DNA from: Patescibacteria group bacterium
Lineage (GTDB): Bacteria; Patescibacteriota; Minisyncoccia; GCA-002772825
DNA length: 52,845 bases
NCBI GenBank assembly: GCA_024654625.1
Contig: JANLHB010000021.1
Coordinates: 1-52,845 of the forward strand
Direction: 5' to 3'
The notes beneath the pieces were generated by a model, which made no database searches, had not been told where the DNA came from, and was given only the letters and a program-made list of their open reading frames with translations. Shown in pieces: positions 3,125 through 27,770 of the stretch (position 1 is its first letter; each line of letters begins with the position of its first letter). The position numbers and the translations under genes were made by a program.

Positions 3125-3280
3125 TTATATCCATATTACAAGATTTATGCTCACTGCACCACTTCTGACATTTCCCTGCCTGCCGGCAGGCAGGTCCGCC
3201 CATTCTTTGTCTTCATATTCATAACCGCACTGCTCGCACTGATATAATTCTTTATCATCTTTTTTTATTATTTTTACCAT
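3125..3280 (-). pseudogene. Small Cys-rich (zinc-ribbon-like) ORF interrupted by the 20-bp palindrome
   Basis: The ATG is at 3280. As found it reads MVKIIKKDDKELYQCEQCGYEYEDKEWAD-LPAGRQ-GNVRSGAVSINLVIWI*. Removing 3175-3194 restores ...KEWAEKCQKWCSEHKSCNMDIIKHGNPK*, ending at 3102 and overlapping the dsbA-like start. Confidence 0.5.
3175..3194. repeat. 20-bp perfect palindrome CCTGCCTGCCGGCAGGCAGG (copy in the small Cys ORF)
   Basis: Exact self-complementary 20-mer read directly. Confidence 0.95.
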
Positions 3281-21767: not shown

Positions 21768-23576
21768 TTAATTTTGATTAAAGTCTTCCTTAGCTTTCTT
21801 TATCGCCATTAGCTGTGCCGGGTCTGAAGTGATAATCTGATCTTCCGTATAAGAAGCCAATACTTTTATCGCCACATGCTTCATACCGGCAAAAAATATC
21901 CCCTCCCCGACATCTGACTCAAGCAATAGAAATTTCTCTTCATCTGTAAGGTTGAAAGTCTTCTGGACGATATCTATAGAGGCCGGAGACTGCTTCAAGA
22001 GGAGCTGTATAGAAGAGTTAGTGATGATAGGCAACCCGTAAGGAGACTTGAGAAAATCGTTTACATCTTGGGTGATAGTGGCAAGTCCAAGATAATATTT
22101 CCTGCACCTCTTAGCGATACCGAAAAGGAAAGAAGCCGTATCTTCATGCTTCATCATCCACCACGCCTCGTCTATTACAAGGAGTCTTTTCTTAATATTC
22201 TTTCTAATGGCATTCCAAATAAAGTGAGTTATCAAATACATAGCAACCGGCCTTAATTCATCTTCCATATCTCTTATAGAAAAAACTACGAAATTCCTAT
22301 TTATATCCACATTAGTCGGCTGATTTATAAAGCCCGACCATGTCCCCTTAGTATATTTACTCAAACGTTCCGCTAAAGATTCTGCGCCCTCCATACTCGC
22401 AAGCACCATTTCAAGCTCTGAGAGGATTGGTGGCACCGCTTTAGAAAAATCTGACTCTGGCGTAATATCTCGCGAAGCATAAGTCTCTGTAATGGCTCTG
22501 TCTAAGATAGCATCCTCCTCCGGAGTAAGCCCTCCGAGCATTATCCTGAAGAGCCCTACCAAGCTGATGATGTTTGAGCGCAAGACATCTTCCGGAGATT
22601 CTCCTTCTGCCGGCACCGGAAGGTCAAATGGGTTGATATGATGCTTTGAAGAAAGAGAGATATTGAAATATCTTCCGTCAACAGCCTCGGCTAAATATTC
22701 ATATTCTCTTTCCGGGTCAATAACAATAACCTCTGTGCCAAACATTAAGCTCCTCAAAACTTCAAGTTTTGTAGTATAAGACTTACCGGAACCGGCCTTG
22801 GCAAAAACTACGGAATTATAATTCTCCAGTGAAAATCTATCAAAAAGGACTAATGAACTGTTATGCCTGTTTATACCGTATAAAATTCCCTTATCTGAAG
22901 TAAGGTCAAAAGAAACAAAAGGAAAAATACTTGAAAGCGGGGATGAATTTAACCTTGAAGAAACTTCAAGCTTGTCTGTGCCTAAAGGAAGCACGCTCTC
23001 AAGACCCTCCTTTTGCTGGAATAATGCCGGCTTCACATATACCAACTTTGATTCAAGGATAGTGCGCACCTCTGACTCAATTTTATTTAATTCGTCTAGA
23101 TCATCGGCAAAGACAGTAAGATATAAACCGATATTAAAAAGTTTTTCTGTCGCTTGCTGGAGCTGGTCGCGCAAATTCTCAAGATCTTGATAAGCGGTAT
23201 CAAGGACGGGGTCTCGGACTAGCCCTTTCTCTTCTCTTATATGTATCTGAGACTGCACTTCGGCAACCTTCTTCTGAAGCTGTCTTAAAACGACTGACGT
23301 TTCTACTGGATGGATAAATATTGAAATATTAAAAACTTTATCCAAGTTAATAATCGGCGAGAACCAATTTGAAGCAAGAAAACGCGGATAAGAAACCACA
23401 AAAAAAGTCCTTGCGACTTTCTCCCCTATCCTTACATTGCTTGAATTTATCTCTAAGGCTGACGGAGCGATAATGTCTTGCAGCTCCATTACGCCCGTCT
23501 CATAAACCTGCTCAGGGAAAACAGGCATTATCTCCGTATCCTTATTTTTCTTATCTGTGTTAAATAAATTAATCAT
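21768..23576 (-). CDS. virB4: VirB4/TrbE/TraC-family type IV secretion ATPase
   Basis: 602 aa with Walker A AKAGSGKSYT, Walker B RLLVIDEAWWM and an N-terminal R.G...ARTFFVVSYPRFL-type segment. Confidence 0.85.
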   Translation of the reverse strand: MINLFNTDKKNKDTEIMPVFPEQVYETGVMELQDIIAPSALEINSSNVRIGEKVARTFFVVSYPRFLASNWFSPIINLDKVFNISIFIHPVETSVVLRQLQKKVAEVQSQIHIREEKGLVRDPVLDTAYQDLENLRDQLQQATEKLFNIGLYLTVFADDLDELNKIESEVRTILESKLVYVKPALFQQKEGLESVLPLGTDKLEVSSRLNSSPLSSIFPFVSFDLTSDKGILYGINRHNSSLVLFDRFSLENYNSVVFAKAGSGKSYTTKLEVLRSLMFGTEVIVIDPEREYEYLAEAVDGRYFNISLSSKHHINPFDLPVPAEGESPEDVLRSNIISLVGLFRIMLGGLTPEEDAILDRAITETYASRDITPESDFSKAVPPILSELEMVLASMEGAESLAERLSKYTKGTWSGFINQPTNVDINRNFVVFSIRDMEDELRPVAMYLITHFIWNAIRKNIKKRLLVIDEAWWMMKHEDTASFLFGIAKRCRKYYLGLATITQDVNDFLKSPYGLPIITNSSIQLLLKQSPASIDIVQKTFNLTDEEKFLLLESDVGEGIFFAGMKHVAIKVLASYTEDQIITSDPAQLMAIKKAKEDFNQN

Positions 23577-23600
23577 AATAAATCAAAAATTGAAATCTCA

Positions 23601-23616
23601 ATTCGCCAGCTGGCGA
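23601..23616. repeat. 16-nt perfect GC palindrome
   Basis: TTCGCCAGCTGGCGAA. Confidence 0.9.
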
Positions 23617-23654
23617 AGCACAATTACAAATTAAAGTCATAAAATTTTTTAATC

Positions 23655-23744
23655 TCAAAATCATTTTTAAATTTTGTCCCGATGGCTTTGCCATCGGGGA
23701 TCCTCGATAAAATCGGGACATTGTCATTTTTCATTTTGATATTT
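23655..23744. repeat. Inverted-repeat arm A, an AT-rich 48-nt module split by a 42-nt GC-rich hairpin insert (23676-23717)
   Basis: 23655-23675 and 23718-23744 match the reverse complement of 24824-24871 with 3 mismatches. The insert is GTCCCGATGGCTTTGCCATCGGGGATCCTCGATAAAATCGGG. Confidence 0.85.
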
Positions 23745-24398
23745 TCAGTTTACATTTTGTTTGGTTACACTCTTATCAAGCTCGCCCGGGTTAAATAATT
23801 TAAAATATAGTTCTATAAGTTCTTCGGTGTTGAGCGGGACAGACCTTATCCCCATACTGGAAAGTCCTCCTGAGACGACGTCTGCTCTCTGCTGAAGCTG
23901 AACTTTATTTTCAATAAATAATTCGTCTTCCGACTTTATCTTTTTAACATCTTTCTTCTTGCCGAAAATACCCATAACGCTATCTAAGACTCCGCTAGCT
24001 GAAGCAAATCCTGACGGAGAATAAGGCACTACCAAGTAGAAAGACTTAGAAACAATATCTGTAGTAGAGACAAAATTCTTGATAAACTCGGAATACTCTC
24101 TTGTCTGGACTTTCAAGAGTTCATTAGGCTGTTCCTTCTCAATATCTGACAGCATATTAAGATACGGCCCGATATCAAGCTTGCTTGATTCAATAAAAAT
24201 CTGCACCGGAAAATCAAGAGAGTTTAAGAAGTTCTGATACTGCATAATGATAGCCGTCTGCTCGTCCTCAGATCTTAAAGCGAAATTTAAACTGGAAGCC
24301 ATCACCACCATACGCATGGAATTATCACGGAGGATAACCACTCCGTCTCTGACTTCCTTTATGGGAACAAATTGTTGTGTAGGTTTAGAGTTAATCAT
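23745..24398 (-). CDS. Hypothetical protein of the T4SS-like operon
   Basis: 217 aa with no TM helix. The segment VVMASSLNFALRSEDEQTAIIMQYQNFLNSL is reminiscent of N-terminal regions of Gram-positive VirB4-type proteins, from memory only. Confidence 0.55.
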   Translation of the reverse strand: MINSKPTQQFVPIKEVRDGVVILRDNSMRMVVMASSLNFALRSEDEQTAIIMQYQNFLNSLDFPVQIFIESSKLDIGPYLNMLSDIEKEQPNELLKVQTREYSEFIKNFVSTTDIVSKSFYLVVPYSPSGFASASGVLDSVMGIFGKKKDVKKIKSEDELFIENKVQLQQRADVVSGGLSSMGIRSVPLNTEELIELYFKLFNPGELDKSVTKQNVN

Positions 24399-24400
24399 TT

Positions 24401-24805
24401 TTATTTTTTAATGTCCAAGCTCCAGGCCAGATCTTTCAGTTTGCTATTCGTTAACTTTGGCGCATATACACCCGCGCCAGACGATTTATTTATTGAACCT
24501 GTAGTCTTAACTGTAACATTTTTAGGTTTGTCTTTCTTCCATAGATAAAGCCTTGAAGAAGAATTATAATTAATGGCGTTTTCAACCACTTTTATAAACG
24601 GCTGATTATTAATCTTATAAAAAGCAAGCGCTAATACAAAGACTACAACAGGAGTCGCAAATATAATTGTAAGCCAAAACGGAAAAATAACATAAAATAG
24701 AAAACTTATACCGCCACCGCCGGCAAGATAAATAAACTGCTTCAAAGTAAGCGGTCCGAAGATCTTATCTTCTACTTCTGTGAATTGTGGGACTTGGAAT
24801 CTCAT
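24401..24805 (-). CDS. PrgI-family (VirB3-like) membrane protein
   Basis: 134 aa; the N-terminus MRFQVPQFTEVEDKIFGPLTLKQFIYL followed by 2 TM helices is typical of the PrgI family. Confidence 0.7.
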   Translation of the reverse strand: MRFQVPQFTEVEDKIFGPLTLKQFIYLAGGGGISFLFYVIFPFWLTIIFATPVVVFVLALAFYKINNQPFIKVVENAINYNSSSRLYLWKKDKPKNVTVKTTGSINKSSGAGVYAPKLTNSKLKDLAWSLDIKK

Positions 24806-24823
24806 AGTAAAAATTTAAAATTT

Positions 24824-24871
24824 AAAAATCAAAATGGAAAATGACAATGTAAAATTTAAAAATAATTTTGA
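24824..24871. repeat. Inverted-repeat arm B (uninterrupted 48-nt module)
   Basis: AAAAATCAAAATGGAAAATGACAATGTAAAATTTAAAAATAATTTTGA is the reverse complement of arm A without the GC insert. Confidence 0.85.
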
Positions 24872-24894
24872 TTTTTGATTTTTGCAATTTACAT

Positions 24895-25692
24895 TTATTT
24901 CACTGGCTCTCTATATGGATCGCCTTCAGGATATTTGTCTCCACCTGGGCCCAACGGCTTATCGCCATCATGCTCTGAAACCTCCGGCGGTCTTCTTGAT
25001 ATCTGCGGTTTTGGCGGGAAAGGAACTCCGCCGCTTTTTACATATTCTTTAGGTAAATCTTCTTTCGCTACAACTATTGATTCCTCTTTTTCTTCCATAA
25101 CAACAGGCAGTGTGGATGGCATAGAAGGAATAGGTATCTCTTTTCCCTCTCCTTCAACAGAAACAGTTTCTTGCTTTAGTGTTTGAGCATTACTAGTGCT
25201 TTCATTTACTTTAGCGTCACTAAAGACTTGTGGCATAGGAATAGATTCAGGTGACTCTATCTCTTTCAATATATCTTCCTTGCTTAATGTTTTAGCAGGT
25301 TCTGGCTCTCTTACGGTTTCCTGTTTTAGCGATTCTGCAGTATCTTTCTCACTATCTTCTTCGTCTTTTATATTGTGAATCCTTTTGAGTGACTCTCTAA
25401 TCTTAGAAAATATCCTATCGTTAACTTCAGCAGTGATATCATGAGCGGTCTTTTTATCCACACCCAAGCGCCGACTAATGTTTGGCATAAAATCTTTCGG
25501 CTCAGTAACGCCGATCATCAAAAGACCAATCTCATCAGCCAGTTCGCTCATCTTATCAATAGTCAAATTATTCTTCTTAGATATATCTTGGATAATTTCA
25601 GTAGAATCGACAGAAAAAATCGCTTCTCTAACATCACCGGGAAGATCTTTATACTTATCCATTAATTTACTATTATATTGATTATTACTCAT
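24895..25692 (-). CDS. Hypothetical acidic/Pro-rich protein
   Basis: 265 aa with a structured N-terminal roughly 100 aa, then a low-complexity E/K/P-rich tail with a repeated LKQETV. Confidence 0.6.
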   Translation of the reverse strand: MSNNQYNSKLMDKYKDLPGDVREAIFSVDSTEIIQDISKKNNLTIDKMSELADEIGLLMIGVTEPKDFMPNISRRLGVDKKTAHDITAEVNDRIFSKIRESLKRIHNIKDEEDSEKDTAESLKQETVREPEPAKTLSKEDILKEIESPESIPMPQVFSDAKVNESTSNAQTLKQETVSVEGEGKEIPIPSMPSTLPVVMEEKEESIVVAKEDLPKEYVKSGGVPFPPKPQISRRPPEVSEHDGDKPLGPGGDKYPEGDPYREPVK

Positions 25693-25709: not shown

Positions 25710-27770
25710 TTAACCTTCATACTCTTCTTTATTTTTATCTATTTTATCTCCTATTGTTTGTGATTTATCCTCAAGCTCTTCTTTAGCACCATACTCTTTC
25801 ATTATGGATTTGGCAGCCGGACCACTTGTAAGCCAAGCGGCAATTGATTTATTATTTATTCCTTTCTTATCACTAAGTTTCTCGATAATCTCATTGATAT
25901 CTTTTGTATCACTAAGCCCGGCAATTTGTTCAAAGAAAGCATCTGCGACATCTCCACCCATATCAGCCAATTTCTTAACATCCGCAGCGCTAAAATTCTT
26001 TATCATCAAGTCTATGTTCTCCTTGTTACCAAAAATTTTATCCCTAACTTTCTTATTAATATTTTCAAGATGTGCCATTGATAAATTCTCCAGAGCGACT
26101 ACCTTCATCTTTTCATCTGTGAAAATCTTCTCGACGACTGAGTCATCCATCTTCTCCAAATCAGCCGGTTTAATAGCTTTTATAGACTTAACAACACCTT
26201 CATCAACCTCCTTGTATTTTTCATCCATATTGCCAGTTGTAGCCAGATCAGGTCTTACTTTATTAACCTCTTTAGTAGACATACCATACTTATTCATAAT
26301 CTTCTTGCCTTGCTCAATTCTTTCTTGAGTGAAGTTTGTATCCTTTTTATCTCCTTTTTCATCTTTATCTTCAACTTTAAGATTTCCTCGTTTAGCAAGT
26401 TCATTTAAAACAGCTGTCCTGTTAAATGGCATCAATCGAGGAGTCATTTCTTTTAATTCCTTGTCAGTAAATTTCTCATATTTCTTTTGTATCTCTTGAA
26501 TCTTTGCTCTATTAGCGGCAACTATACTTGCCGAGCCATAAGCAACACCTGGTATTTTATTTAAAGTTTGACTAATTTTTCCTTTACCAGTTGCAATATT
26601 TTCTGCGATACCACCTGTAGCGCGTCTTGCAGAACTTAAAGCAATCTTTCCAGCTTTACCTTGTCCCCATTTGCGAGCAGTGGTGCCCCATTTCATCATA
26701 GTGCTTGAGCCGACGGCGCCCATCTTGCTTGCCACAATGAGTGATCCGATCATCAAACCGATAAGAATTATAAAATAAACCAATGTATTTATAGACCCCT
26801 TAAACATAAAGTCCATAACACCAGCGCCTTCTTTCATGCCAATCGCTGTCGCCAGATTGTTTTCACTTATCATCTTGACCACTATATATATCATAAACAT
26901 ATAAGCCGGAGCAAAAAACGATTGAGAGAAAAGAGTTGACCACCATTTTTTTGAATGAGAGCTTGTGGCAGGCAAAATCATACCCGCAAAAGCAAGTGGC
27001 GCCAGTATTATTAAAAATAAAAGAGTAATAGTCCTGATTGAGAAAAGTATTCCGGCGGCAAACAAGACAAAAGAAGTAACTAACATAAGAAGCGTTCCTC
27101 CAAGCGCGCCTATTATTACTCCACCCATGGACATTTGCTCGCCTCCGGGGACACCCAAAGCGGTGGGGTCTGCGGCTATATCAGGCTTGTCATAAGATTT
27201 ATATACTGTTTGAAGCTTAAGCCCCTGCATCAAAACAGAAGAAATACCCGCTTCCGCAGTAATCTTGCTGTAAAATTCAACAGCGACAACATTAGAAGCA
27301 TCTATAACCACCTTTGTAACGACACCGCTAAAATTAACAAGAAGAGCTATGATTATAACTTTCACTAAAAGATCCTTTATACCATAGCCTGCAATCTGTA
27401 AAATTGTAGCTATAGCTATATAAAGAAGAATGAAAATGAAAAATATATTAATGGTATCACGAGCTATAGTCCACCCTGTCGTTATGCCTGCCATATTCGC
27501 ATAACTGTGAAAATCAATGATTGATATCTTCAAAGTTAAATCAAAAAATAATCCGGCAACCCATACAACCAAGCTTGCCATCCACATAATTATATTTGCT
27601 ATATTAACAAGCAACTCCATGAGTTTACCGCCAATCCACTCACCAGGCGATGTTATTGGATTAGCAGCTTCAGCATTATACGCTCCTAAAGGAGAAAAAA
27701 ATACAACAGCAAAAAACACTAAAACTAAAGCCAGTGGCAAAAATTTTCTGATTTTTACTTTAATTGACAT
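25710..27770 (-). CDS. VirB6/TrbL-like polytopic membrane protein with a long K/E-rich cytoplasmic tail
   Basis: 686 aa with a signal peptide, about 7-8 TM helices in the first roughly 370 aa, then a hydrophilic tail. Assigned from topology and operon context. Confidence 0.5.
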   Translation of the reverse strand: MSIKVKIRKFLPLALVLVFFAVVFFSPLGAYNAEAANPITSPGEWIGGKLMELLVNIANIIMWMASLVVWVAGLFFDLTLKISIIDFHSYANMAGITTGWTIARDTINIFFIFILLYIAIATILQIAGYGIKDLLVKVIIIALLVNFSGVVTKVVIDASNVVAVEFYSKITAEAGISSVLMQGLKLQTVYKSYDKPDIAADPTALGVPGGEQMSMGGVIIGALGGTLLMLVTSFVLFAAGILFSIRTITLLFLIILAPLAFAGMILPATSSHSKKWWSTLFSQSFFAPAYMFMIYIVVKMISENNLATAIGMKEGAGVMDFMFKGSINTLVYFIILIGLMIGSLIVASKMGAVGSSTMMKWGTTARKWGQGKAGKIALSSARRATGGIAENIATGKGKISQTLNKIPGVAYGSASIVAANRAKIQEIQKKYEKFTDKELKEMTPRLMPFNRTAVLNELAKRGNLKVEDKDEKGDKKDTNFTQERIEQGKKIMNKYGMSTKEVNKVRPDLATTGNMDEKYKEVDEGVVKSIKAIKPADLEKMDDSVVEKIFTDEKMKVVALENLSMAHLENINKKVRDKIFGNKENIDLMIKNFSAADVKKLADMGGDVADAFFEQIAGLSDTKDINEIIEKLSDKKGINNKSIAAWLTSGPAAKSIMKEYGAKEELEDKSQTIGDKIDKNKEEYEG

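What the first reader, a model, noticed from the sequence alone, without database searches (positions are those of the whole stretch)
23655..24871. 48-nt inverted repeats exactly bracket the prgI-like plus orf217 gene pair, and one arm shows a filled-versus-empty 42-nt GC hairpin insertion
Arm B (24824-24871) is the reverse complement of arm A (23655-23675 plus 23718-23744), with 3 mismatches over 48 nt. Arm A ends at the base before the stop codon of orf217. Arm B begins 18 nt upstream of the prgI-like start. The repeats therefore delimit a 1.1-kb two-gene cassette inside the operon.

Three readings are possible:
- An invertible or mobile cassette. No recombinase is nearby.
- A long-range RNA stem in the polycistronic mRNA, for processing or differential stability.
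- Remnants of recombination.

Arm A is additionally split by GTCCCGATGGCTTTGCCATCGGGGATCCTCGATAAAATCGGG, with 8-bp termini GTCCCGAT/ATCGGGAC. This insert can form two mutually exclusive hairpins. Arm B serves as its own empty-site control, so small GC-rich hairpins do insert into AT-rich spacers in this genome.
Basis: seen in the sequence. Interest (0 to 1): 0.65.

Follow-up and report, generated by a model that had tools for sequence, protein, structure and literature searches.

The report
Two decayed hairpin-cassette remnants, not a switch
The 48-base inverted repeats are the matching ends of two separate decayed copies of a small AT-rich hairpin element that is scattered through this genome and through ultra-small (CPR) bacteria, and one copy later received a genuine 42-base GC-rich double-hairpin insertion.

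Summary
Arm A and arm B are inverted repeats (45/48), and arm A is split by a 42-nt GC-rich insert.

The "two-gene cassette" reading is not supported.
- Each arm is the gene-start end of a small hairpin cassette: a heptamer array, an ATG and about 14 codons.
- In a same-genus relative this cassette carries an intact PF05635 four-helix-bundle gene, the family known from 23S rRNA intervening sequences.
- The window holds two gene-less remnants in opposite orientation, at two different gene junctions of a T4SS-like operon.
- The same module sits at four more junctions in this genome.
- Its 22-nt core occurs exactly at 120 or more places across Patescibacteria genomes.
- Close relatives have 2-3 nt at these junctions or different occupants. 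None shows the arm pair or an inverted prgI-orf217.

The 42-nt insert is a true insertion.
- Two orthologous loci carry the same element without it.
- It belongs to a class-wide family of GC double hairpins (16 of 301 genomes, 0 in the control).
- A second GC palindrome, from a family with 10 or more copies, was also inserted.

A long-range RNA duplex between the arms is thermodynamically predicted, but the pairing is not conserved.

No run holds this strain, so inversion could not be tested with reads.

The parts
24806..24894 (+). igB: an 89-nt gene-less miniature hairpin element filling the junction between the 265-aa gene and prgI. It lies on the + strand, antisense to the operon. It consists of a heptamer array, an ATG, 14 codons and an inverted heptamer array.
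   Evidence: It is a local imperfect palindrome (I2). TRF finds period-7 arrays at 24810-24861 and 24866-24884. Lag-7 autocorrelation is 0.67 against 0.38 in shuffles. The nhmmer module hit has E 6e-11. It aligns to the cassette of L002.
24824..24871 (+). Arm B: the gene-start end of the igB remnant. ATG 24834-24836 opens the pseudo-ORF MENDNVKFKNNFDF*.
   Evidence: The intact relative gene starts MENDNEKFKNEF. Arm B scores better against the cassette's left end than against its right end (37 vs 31).
24819..24847 (-). Sigma-70-like site TTGTCA-17-TAAATT inside arm B, facing the prgI start.
   Evidence: 9/12 matches; the number of sites in the region is not above shuffles. The same geometry recurs at 16-27 nt from a gene ATG in 30 of the 77 modules scanned; 35 of 77 have a gene start within 40 nt.
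24401..24805 (-). prgI-like (VirB3-like) gene, 134 aa.
   Evidence: PF12666, E 1.8e-12.
23745..24398 (-). orf217: TraC-like N-terminal domain of VirB4, encoded as a separate ORF.
   Evidence: PF26593 is precomputed for its cluster, and there are 4554 homologues, the 120 listed being about 210-240 aa. There is a weak PF11130 match. Its last codons overlap the end of the element.
23577..23744 (-). igA: a 168-nt junction element on the operon strand. It is 113 nt in relative L008 and of similar length in G001. It consists of a left heptamer arm, an ATG, a 22-codon remnant and a right arm, plus two later GC insertions.
   Evidence: Alignment with L008 and G001. The left 57 nt align to the L002 cassette, including the first codons of the four-helix-bundle gene. 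Remnant ORFs appear. Relatives L004 and L006 have 3 nt here, and in L002 the two genes overlap.
23655..23675 (+). Arm A, distal part (codons 7-13 of the remnant, read on the minus strand).
23677..23718 (.). 42-nt GC-rich double-hairpin insertion (TCCCGATGGCTTTGCCATCGGGGATCCTCGATAAAATCGGGA). The boundary is ambiguous by 1 nt.
   Evidence: It is a clean 42-column gap in L008 and G001. It folds at z about -4 on either strand. The family occurs in 16 of 301 genomes of the class and 0 in the reversed-pattern control. The architecture is shared: GTCCCGA, mini-hairpin, TCGAGGATCCTCGA, mini-hairpin, TCGGGAC.
23718..23744 (+). Arm A, proximal part (heptamer array, ATG 23734-23732 and the first codons of the remnant, on the minus strand).
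   Evidence: TRF finds period 7 at 23724-23758. The nhmmer hit covers 23718-23757.
23602..23617 (.). Second GC palindrome, TTCGCCAGCTGGCGAA, inserted into the right arm of igA (net +13 nt).
   Evidence: It is a 13-column gap in L008 and G001. It belongs to the CGCCAGCTGGCG core family, which has 10 or more copies in the genome, several forming the tips of hairpins flanked by an A-run and a T-run.
21768..23576 (-). VirB4-type ATPase part, 602 aa.
   Evidence: PF19044, E 9e-26.

Best explanation
The two arms are homologous ends of two separate elements. They are not the borders of one unit.

What each arm is:
- Each arm is the gene-start end of a small hairpin cassette of the type known from 23S rRNA intervening sequences.
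- That cassette is a four-helix-bundle gene (PF05635) lying between inverted arrays of 7-nt repeats.
- The left array contains the start codon and the first codons of the gene.

What the window holds:
- igB lies between the 265-aa gene and prgI, on the + strand.
- igA lies between the TraC-like ORF and the VirB4 ATPase ORF, on the - strand.
- Both have lost almost the whole gene. Because they lie in opposite orientation, their equivalent ends form a 48-nt inverted repeat.

How the family behaves:
- It fills tiny cistron junctions. Its outer ends abut or overlap the neighbouring stop and start codons.
- It is gained and lost among close relatives.

Later events at igA:
- It received a 42-nt GC-rich double-hairpin element.
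- It also received a 16-nt GC palindrome from a second family.

What is shown:
- The homology of the arms to the cassette end.
- The copy distribution.
- The filled and empty sites.

What is inferred:
- The elements are transcribed with the operon.
- Their arms can pair. By analogy with rRNA intervening sequences they may be cut by RNase III, whose gene is present.
- How the elements move is unknown.
For: - The arms match at 45/48.
- Arm B on the + strand reads MENDNVKFKNNFDF*.
- igA on the - strand reads MKNDNV-[14 codons of the insert]-KFKNDFEIKKFYDFNL*. The G001 and L008 versions read MENNNAKFQNNFEIKKFYDFNL* and MKNNNAKFKDDFEIKKFYDFNL*.
- The intact 123-aa PF05635 gene of relative L002/G002 starts MENDNEKFKNEFKK. 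It lies between the inverted repeats AAATATCAAAATGGAAAATGAC / GTCATTTTCCATTTTGATATTT, inserted between prgI and the TraC-like gene.
- Both arms score higher against the cassette's left end than against its right end.
- The arrays have period 7.
- The same module lies at four other junctions of this genome: rpsG/fusA, ruvB/yebC, C31 and C41. It always faces a gene boundary.
- The 22-nt core gives 120 or more exact hits in species-representative genomes across Patescibacteria. Of 83 hits, 71 have fewer than 40 codons after the ATG and 1 is an intact gene.
- An inverted partner lies on the inner side in 25 of 66 modules and on the outer side in 0 of 66.
- Metagenome contigs with unrelated flanks pile up on the arms, at up to 2000x word depth.
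- Four junctions show filled/empty or occupant polymorphism within the genus.
- The cassette's protein is 82-94% identical across many named CPR lineages. The TraC-like protein is only 36-60% identical across families of the class.
- Other PF05635 genes in relatives also lie within 35-50-nt inverted arrays that overlap their start codon.
- The published Coxiella IVS has the same layout: an S23p ORF, a 28-bp terminal stem, tandem heptamers before the ATG, and RNase III excision (PMC4990558).
- PF05635 ORFs and short ORF-less inserts are reported in CPR rRNA genes (PMC11270868).
Against: - No intact PF05635 gene lies in the window. The assignment rests on 14-22 remnant codons plus nucleotide homology.
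- No transposition was observed, no target-site duplication was recognised, and no mobilising enzyme was identified.
- The two arms are slightly more alike (45/48) than either is to any of 83 copies elsewhere (maximum 44, median 38-39). This could reflect recent copying, gene conversion or selection for pairing.
- Folding predicts that the arms pair with each other rather than locally.
- The local hairpins are weak as RNA: igB z +0.3, and igA without inserts z -1.3.
Confidence: 0.85

Rival explanations
1. The arms form a functional long-range RNA stem. In the polycistronic mRNA the arm B region pairs with the arm A region, with the GC double hairpin extruded as a side branch. This creates a roughly 48-bp duplex that RNase III cuts. 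The cut releases or destabilises the prgI-orf217 segment relative to the flanking cistrons.
For: - Cofolding igB with igA gives -81.5 kcal/mol, against -54.0 for the two folded separately.
- The MFE of the 1341-nt mRNA segment has 64 igB-igA base pairs.
- The duplex energy is -39.4, against a shuffle mean of -17.8 and a shuffle best of -28.0 (all).
- An RNase III gene is present.
- The self-folding insert would not break the duplex.
- The arms are marginally more alike than unrelated copies are.
Against: - The arm pair exists only in this genome. L008 has igA but a different 44-nt sequence upstream of prgI.
- L004, L006 and L002 lack igA.
- A relative's contig in runs X1 and X2 lacks both elements.
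- Any two oppositely oriented copies of this palindromic family are complementary by descent.
- The loop is 1.05 kb and is translated.
- No RNA data exist for this strain.
Confidence: 0.1
2. The segment is an invertible or excisable DNA cassette. Recombination between the inverted arms flips prgI-orf217 as a phase switch.
For: The only support is the geometry: inverted repeats that exactly bracket two genes.
Against: - The eight ORFs scanned between 19857 and 27770 contain no recombinase.
- Arm A's homology is split by the insert into 21-nt and 27-nt blocks.
- Inversion would place two essential T4SS parts antisense to their operon.
- Every relative examined keeps prgI, the TraC-like gene and VirB4 collinear on one strand.
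- No strand-changing joints appear in the runs laid. Those runs do not hold this strain, so this last point is weak.
Confidence: 0.03
3. The module is selected as a portable promoter or leader. This reading does not exclude the main explanation. The outward-facing end TTGTCA-N17-TAAATT, placed about 13 nt before the ATG, drives or re-starts expression of the downstream gene (here prgI). That would explain its sequence conservation across the phylum.
For: - A sigma-70-like site lies at 24847-24819.
- The module end lies 16-27 nt from a long ORF's start in 30 of the 77 copies scanned (35 of 77 within 40 nt), with conserved TTGTCA and TAcATT-like hexamers.
- The genes here have no Shine-Dalgarno sequence (read directly).
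- An element that splits coupled cistrons must not be polar if it is to persist.
Against: - The number of promoter-like sites in the region is not above shuffles (6 vs 5.1).
- The fixed distance follows trivially from elements filling junctions of 2-3 nt.
- The other half of the copies face stop codons of convergently read sequence, as arm A does.
- The conserved spacer sequence points to common descent rather than promoter constraint.
Confidence: 0.25

Closest known systems
ORF-bearing intervening sequences (IVS) of 23S rRNA genes (Leptospira; Coxiella burnetii S23p IVS, PMC4990558)
   Same: - A PF05635 / S23p four-helix-bundle gene lies in the loop of a terminal inverted repeat.
- Tandem heptamers lie next to and over the start codon.
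- The ORF is prone to decay and deletion.
- The distribution suggests horizontal spread.
- PF05635 ORFs and short ORF-less inserts are reported in CPR rRNA genes (PMC11270868).
   Different: - Here the elements lie at cistron junctions of protein-coding operons, not in rRNA helices.
- The window copies have lost the gene.
- Many copies share the same arms within and between genomes, as a miniature-element family would.
- RNase III excision is untested.
MITEs and other miniature palindromic elements that sit at gene ends (Correia elements, RPEs, ERICs)
   Same: - Short (about 90-130 nt), ORF-less and multi-copy.
- They have terminal inverted repeats.
- They are co-transcribed, and they abut or overlap stop and start codons.
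- They show presence/absence polymorphism between close relatives.
   Different: - No target-site duplication was recognised.
- No transposase-bearing parent was found. The only gene-carrying form encodes a four-helix-bundle protein.
- The arms are arrays of 7-nt repeats.
Intergenic heptamer repeat arrays of Xanthomonas and Nostoc (Rehm et al. 2015, PMC4692102)
   Same: They are 7-nt repeat arrays concentrated between co-directional ORFs, within 50 bp of starts and stops, and they are transcribed.
   Different: Those arrays are G-rich and were interpreted as quadruplex-forming. These are AT-rich, inverted in pairs, and linked here to a gene family.
REP / REPIN elements with RAYT transposases, and GC clusters or double-hairpin elements of fungal mitochondria (the latter from my own knowledge)
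   Same: The 42-nt insert is a short GC-rich nested palindrome. It occurs in both orientations and in several copies in some genomes. It is inserted into AT-rich non-coding DNA without an obvious duplication. The genome encodes 5-6 RAYT-like Y1 enzymes.
   Different: Each RAYT gene examined is flanked by its own, different palindrome, and none by this element. The element has only one clear copy and one diverged copy in this genome.

Membership tests
S23p/PF05635 intervening-sequence cassette | Encodes a PF05635 four-helix-bundle protein | tested here: not met
   The window copies keep only 14- and 22-codon remnants of the N-terminus. An intact 123-aa gene is present in the homologous cassette of relative L002/G002 (E 4e-19). 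The window copies are therefore filed as remnants or miniature derivatives, not as full members.
S23p/PF05635 intervening-sequence cassette | Terminal inverted repeats able to form a stem around the ORF | tested here: met
   The L002 cassette ends are complementary over about 46 nt. igB and igA each carry local inverted arms. As RNA the local stems are weak (z +0.3 and -1.3).
S23p/PF05635 intervening-sequence cassette | Tandem heptamer repeats at the start-codon end | tested here: met
   TRF finds period-7 arrays in both arms. The lag-7 autocorrelation is significant. Compare the heptamers in Coxiella.
S23p/PF05635 intervening-sequence cassette | Located in a 23S (or 16S) rRNA helix | tested here: not met
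   Both copies lie between protein-coding genes of a T4SS-like operon. Rfam finds nothing in 23400-25000.
S23p/PF05635 intervening-sequence cassette | Excised from the transcript by RNase III | not testable with these tools
   An RNase III gene is present. No RNA run holds this strain.
MITE-like non-autonomous element | Multi-copy, ORF-less, with shared terminal inverted repeats | tested here: met
   The module lies at six junctions in this genome. There are 120 or more exact core hits elsewhere, 71 of 83 of them ORF-less. An inner inverted partner is present in 25 of 66 modules against 0 of 66 in the control.
MITE-like non-autonomous element | Target-site duplication and a cognate transposase-bearing parent | tested here: inconclusive
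   The filled/empty junctions show no clear duplication. The AT-rich flanks make 1-3-nt duplications undecidable. The only gene-bearing form carries PF05635, not a known transposase.
REP/REPIN-RAYT system (for the 42-nt insert) | GC-rich palindromic unit, repeated, extragenic, in both orientations | tested here: met
   The hairpin occurs in 16 of 301 genomes and 0 in the control. G223 has 7 matches. Both orientations occur.
REP/REPIN-RAYT system (for the 42-nt insert) | A RAYT gene flanked by the same palindrome | tested here: not met
   Five of the six Y1_Tnp genes in G000 and the Y1_Tnp genes examined in G001 and G223 are flanked by other palindromes. No flanking palindrome was noted at the sixth G000 gene (C20:165823-166479).
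Invertible DNA switch | Site-specific recombinase nearby, and both orientations observed | tested here: not met
   The eight ORFs scanned between 19857 and 27770 contain no recombinase. All relatives show a single orientation. Reads of this strain are not available.

The most novel reading that the evidence does not exclude
The AT-rich module is the arm of a phylum-wide mobile system with no known transposase.
- Its gene-carrying form encodes only the PF05635 four-helix-bundle protein.
- Its far more numerous miniature forms would be non-autonomous copies.
- The system colonises transcribed junctions, both operon spacers and rRNA helices. It supplies stop and start contexts so that it is not polar.
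- The four-helix-bundle protein would be the factor that recognises the heptamer arrays.
- GC double-hairpin elements would in turn target these arrays. They sit inside heptamer tracts here and in at least five other genomes, usually just 3' of TTTG.
Probability: 0.3. Interest if true: 0.8.

Novelty: new variant of a known kind. Interest (0 to 1): 0.5.

Why it matters
The function of the S23p / PF05635 protein, and the way rRNA intervening sequences spread, have been open questions since the 1990s. I state that from my own knowledge. The Coxiella paper still calls the protein functionless.

This locus and its genus offer what has been missing:
- One junction shows an intact cassette (444 nt), a 96-nt miniature, 32-35-nt stubs and an empty 2-nt site in close relatives.
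- Copies share identical arms within and across genomes.
- The cassette protein is much more conserved across lineages than the host proteins are.

Together these make gain, decay and horizontal spread directly countable, and they give defined DNA/RNA substrates for binding and cleavage tests.

The locus also shows that streamlined CPR genomes carry layered repeat families: heptamer elements, GC double hairpins, and several REP/RAYT sets. These families break assemblies and alter gene ends.

For the finding as posed the result is sobering. There is no evidence of a switch or of a two-gene mobile cassette.

Tried and rejected
- **virB4 split by an insertion.** I first thought igA might be an insertion that split a single virB4 gene, because orf217 and the 602-aa ORF are in the same frame. 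I rejected this. The TraC-like N-domain is a separate ORF in thousands of Patescibacteria.
- **Rfam.** A search of 23400-25000 at E up to 1 found nothing.
- **Read evidence for inversion.** No public run holds this strain (best word share 0.09). Laying four runs gave only relatives' contigs and hundreds of unrelated module copies. The 'goes back' joints there have 26-38-nt sides at under 95% likeness. They come from local palindromic elements elsewhere, not from this locus.
- **A cognate RAYT for the 42-nt hairpin.** I searched G000, G001 and G223. Each RAYT examined has a different private palindrome, apart from one G000 gene where none was noted.
- **A copy of the 42-nt insert elsewhere in the genome.** BLAST found none. 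A regex search found one diverged 76-nt relative at C9:33773-33848.
- **Literature.** Searches for PF05635, TIGR02436 and the intervening-sequence protein found no paper linking the gene family to operon-junction elements.
- **Local RNA hairpins as strong structures.** Rejected for igB (z +0.3).
Full report
**Setting**

The window is contig C21 of an 831-kb, 47-contig genome with 38.9% GC. A same-genus relative is named Parcubacteria group bacterium CG10_big_fil_rev_8_21_14_0_10_38_31.

All genes at the locus are on the minus strand:
- TrbL/VirB6-like gene (25710-27770).
- A 265-aa ORF (24895-25692).
- PrgI-like gene (24401-24805; PF12666, E 1.8e-12).
- orf217 (23745-24398; TraC-like N-domain of VirB4, PF26593).
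- A 602-aa VirB4-type ATPase (21768-23576; PF19044).
- Two small ORFs and a T4SS pilin.

- Arm A, joined across the insert, matches the reverse complement of 24824-24871 with 3 mismatches in 48. None of 100 shuffles gave a match.
- The distances to the orf217 stop and the prgI start are as stated.
- The 42-nt insert folds into two adjacent GC hairpins: -21.3 kcal/mol, z about -4.

**The arms are not unique**

BLAST and nhmmer against the whole genome find the same module at four further gene junctions:
- C37, between rpsG and fusA.
- C23, between ruvB and yebC.
- C31.
- C41.

At these sites the module usually occurs as a local inverted pair inside one spacer. The outer end of each copy lies 6-13 nt from, or overlaps, the neighbouring gene boundary.

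igB itself (24806-24894) is such a local palindrome (I2). igA (23577-23744) has its own degenerate right arm next to the VirB4 start.

**What relatives show at the orf217/VirB4 junction**

Loci encoding orf217 homologues at 87-96% identity were fetched.
- The junction is 3 nt in L004 and L006. The two genes overlap in L002.
- It is 113 nt in L008 and of similar length in G001.
- The L008 and G001 spacers align base for base with igA, except for two clean gaps (alignment A1).
  - One gap is 42 columns, exactly at the GC double hairpin.
  - The other is 13 columns, at the palindrome TTCGCCAGCTGGCGAA (23602-23617).
- These are orthologous empty sites for both GC insertions. They are much stronger evidence than the paralogous arm B.

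**What relatives show at the prgI/orf217 junction**

The junction varies as follows:
- 2 nt in the window and in L004.
- 32-35 nt in G001 and L006.
- 96 nt in L008.
- 444 nt in L002 (and in L001 and L003).

In L002 the junction holds a 123-aa PF05635 (23S_rRNA_IVP, four-helix-bundle) gene. The gene is flanked by the perfect inverted repeat AAATATCAAAATGGAAAATGAC ... GTCATTTTCCATTTTGATATTT. The left repeat contains the gene's ATG.

**Identity of the arms**

- The left part of igA aligns with the left end of the L002 cassette, through the start codon and the first codons. igB aligns with a cassette end as well.
- Read on the + strand, arm B is ATG-GAA-AAT-GAC..., which translates to MENDNVKFKNNFDF*.
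- Read on the - strand, igA is MKNDNV, then 14 codons from the insert, then KFKNDFEIKKFYDFNL*.
- The G001 and L008 versions read MENNNAKFQNNFEIKKFYDFNL* and MKNNNAKFKDDFEIKKFYDFNL*.
- The intact gene starts MENDNEKFKNEFKKRLY.
- Both arms score better against the cassette's left end than against its right end (38 and 37, against 31).

The 48-nt inverted repeat is therefore the same end of two decayed cassettes that lie in opposite orientation. That end is a heptamer array, the ATG and about 12-14 codons. TRF and autocorrelation confirm the 7-nt periodicity.

I reached this reading, before consulting earlier notes of the scan.

**Breadth of the family**

The 80 that were listed come from many named Patescibacteria lineages.
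- Of 83 hits, 71 have fewer than 40 codons after the ATG and one is an intact 123-aa gene.
- An inverted partner lies on the inner side within 6-84 nt in 25 of 66 modules, and on the outer side in 0 of 66.
- The outer end faces a long ORF's start within 40 nt in 35 of 77 copies, mostly at 16-27 nt.
- Four groundwater and aquatic metagenome runs pile hundreds of contigs with unrelated flanks on the two arms, at word depth up to about 2000. The genes between the arms stay at single-organism depth.
- The cassette's protein has more than 120 clusters at 82-94% identity, almost all 123 aa. The named ones are in Doudna-, Terry-, Harrison-, Moran-, Portnoy- and Yanofskybacteria.
- By contrast, the TraC-like host protein is 36-60% identical across families of the class.
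- Other PF05635 genes in relatives, and the one intact copy in this genome (C34:62269-62556), also lie within inverted AT-rich or lineage-specific heptamer arrays.

**Turnover within the genus**

- rpsG/fusA is 125 nt with this module in G000. It is 102 nt with a different, TAG-type inverted heptamer array in G001. It is 37 nt in G003 and about 33 nt in G002.
- ruvB/yebC is 198 nt in G000 and 143 nt in G001. From the BLAST coordinates it is about 50 nt in G002 and close to 0 nt in G003.
- The 265aa/prgI junction, where igB sits, holds unrelated short sequences in L008, L006, L004 and L002.
- prgI, the TraC-like gene and VirB4 are collinear on one strand in every relative examined.

**The GC inserts**

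- The hairpin CCCGATGGCTTTGCCATCGGG, allowing up to 2 mismatches, occurs in 16 of 301 genomes of the class. The reversed-pattern control gives no hits. G223 has seven matches.
- In context the copies share a nested-palindrome architecture: GTCCCGA, mini-hairpin, TCGAGGATCCTCGA, mini-hairpin, TCGGGAC. The mini-hairpins vary and both orientations occur.
- Several copies sit inside heptamer tracts, usually just after TTTG, for example GGAATTTGGAATTTG|T...A|GAATTTGG.
- The genome has one diverged 76-nt relative at C9:33773-33848.
- The second insert shares its core CGCCAGCTGGCG with 10 or more copies in the genome. Several of these form the tips of hairpins flanked by an A-run and a T-run.
- A third family, CCTGCCTRCCGGYAGGCAGG, has at least 13 non-coding copies.
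- The genome encodes six Y1_Tnp (RAYT-like) matches, five of them above the Pfam cut-off. Five of the six genes are flanked by their own palindrome, and none by the 42-nt element.

**RNA level**

- Folding predicts that igB and igA pair with each other. Cofolding gives -81.5 kcal/mol, against -8.8 and -45.2 for the two alone.
- The MFE of the 1341-nt segment has 64 cross pairs. The GC double hairpin branches off the duplex.
- Local hairpins are weak: igB z +0.3, and the L008 version of igA z -1.3.
- RNase III is encoded.
- However, any two oppositely oriented copies of a palindromic family are complementary by descent, and the arrangement is not conserved.
- The arms are only marginally more alike (45/48) than the best unrelated copies (44/48).

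**Comparison with what is known**

- The closest described system is the ORF-bearing intervening sequence of 23S rRNA. In Coxiella an S23p ORF lies in the loop of a 28-bp terminal stem. Tandem heptamers precede the ATG, RNase III excises the element, and the ORF is decaying (PMC4990558).
- PF05635 ORFs and many short ORF-less inserts occur in CPR rRNA genes (PMC11270868).
- Intergenic heptamer arrays near starts and stops are described for Xanthomonas and Nostoc, without a gene family attached (PMC4692102).
- Earlier notes of this scan describe PF05635 genes between inverted heptamer arms in operons of many phyla. A later check on one of them recorded that copies in one genome rarely share arms, and that filled/empty sites were known from one genus only.
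- Here the copies do share arms, ORF-less miniatures dominate, and a further genus shows filled and empty sites.

**Verdict**

- The repeat is real but ordinary in origin: two remnants of a dispersed element family.
- The invertible or mobile two-gene cassette is not supported.
- The GC-hairpin insertion claim is confirmed and extended.
- The element family itself is the more interesting object.

Noticed in passing
window 21768-24398: VirB4 is encoded as two ORFs in the same frame: a TraC-like N-domain of 217 aa and a 602-aa ATPase. The separate N-domain ORF recurs widely in Patescibacteria (4554 homologues; the 120 listed are about 210-240 aa), so the split is ancestral and was not caused by the junction element.
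   Followed up: partly
L041 (G001:C38) 1065-1215: In the closest relative the orf217 homologue has lost its stop codon and reads 8 codons into the junction element. In the window and in L008 the element supplies the stop codon and the last residues (QNVN*, against QNI*/QKI* at empty sites).
   Followed up: partly
window 23624-23734 (minus strand): The 42-nt GC insert is in frame (14 codons, PILSRIPDGKAIGT) within the remnant ORF of igA. This is probably coincidence.
   Followed up: no
G000 C31:15578-16342, C20:49358-50023, C41:10626-11327, C9:9604-10257, C20:165823-166479, C4:20127-20855: An 831-kb genome carries six RAYT-like Y1 (HUH) transposase genes. Five are bracketed by their own private GC palindrome, the classical REP/RAYT layout.
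   Followed up: partly
window 3175-3194 and 12 or more other sites in G000: The palindrome family CCTGCCTRCCGGYAGGCAGG has 13 or more non-coding copies. Two lie next to AT-rich modules (C23:19717, C41:22246).
   Followed up: no
G000 C9:33754-33930 (L221:355-530): About 150 nt upstream of the true 16S rRNA start lies a second copy of the 16S 5' end (TTTTTAAGAGTTTGATCCTAG ... CTCAGGAT). It is interrupted by a 76-nt relative of the GC double-hairpin element. A group II intron domain match lies just downstream of the 16S gene (L221:2224-2300).
   Followed up: partly
L120, L144, L158 (genome-contig hits): In some genomes the module's ATG is fused in frame to the downstream gene. For example, a formyltransferase-like protein starts MKNDNAKCKIIFIGTSDFG. 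The element can therefore donate a start codon and an N-terminal extension.
   Followed up: no
L209 (G001 rpsG/fusA junction); L008 2456-2499; L006 2513-2560: The same junctions in close relatives hold a different inverted heptamer array (TAG-type: TTAGCCA, ATAGCCA, CTAGTGG ...). This suggests turnover of different array families at one site.
   Followed up: no
G004:C22:14672-16213: In a different family of the class, a PF05635 gene again lies just upstream of the TraC-like gene. This is either a hot spot or an old occupant of that junction.
   Followed up: no
L155 (Pacearchaeota MAG), L114 (Spirochaetia MAG), several 'Gammaproteobacteria'/'Saccharibacteria' TPA bins: Exact 22-nt core hits occur in records labelled outside Parcubacteria. 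The cause could be mislabelled bins, contamination or real transfer. This was not examined.
   Followed up: no
G001:C38 start: The relative's contig begins at codon 2 of prgI, exactly where igB sits in the window. This is consistent with an assembly break at a repeat.
   Followed up: no
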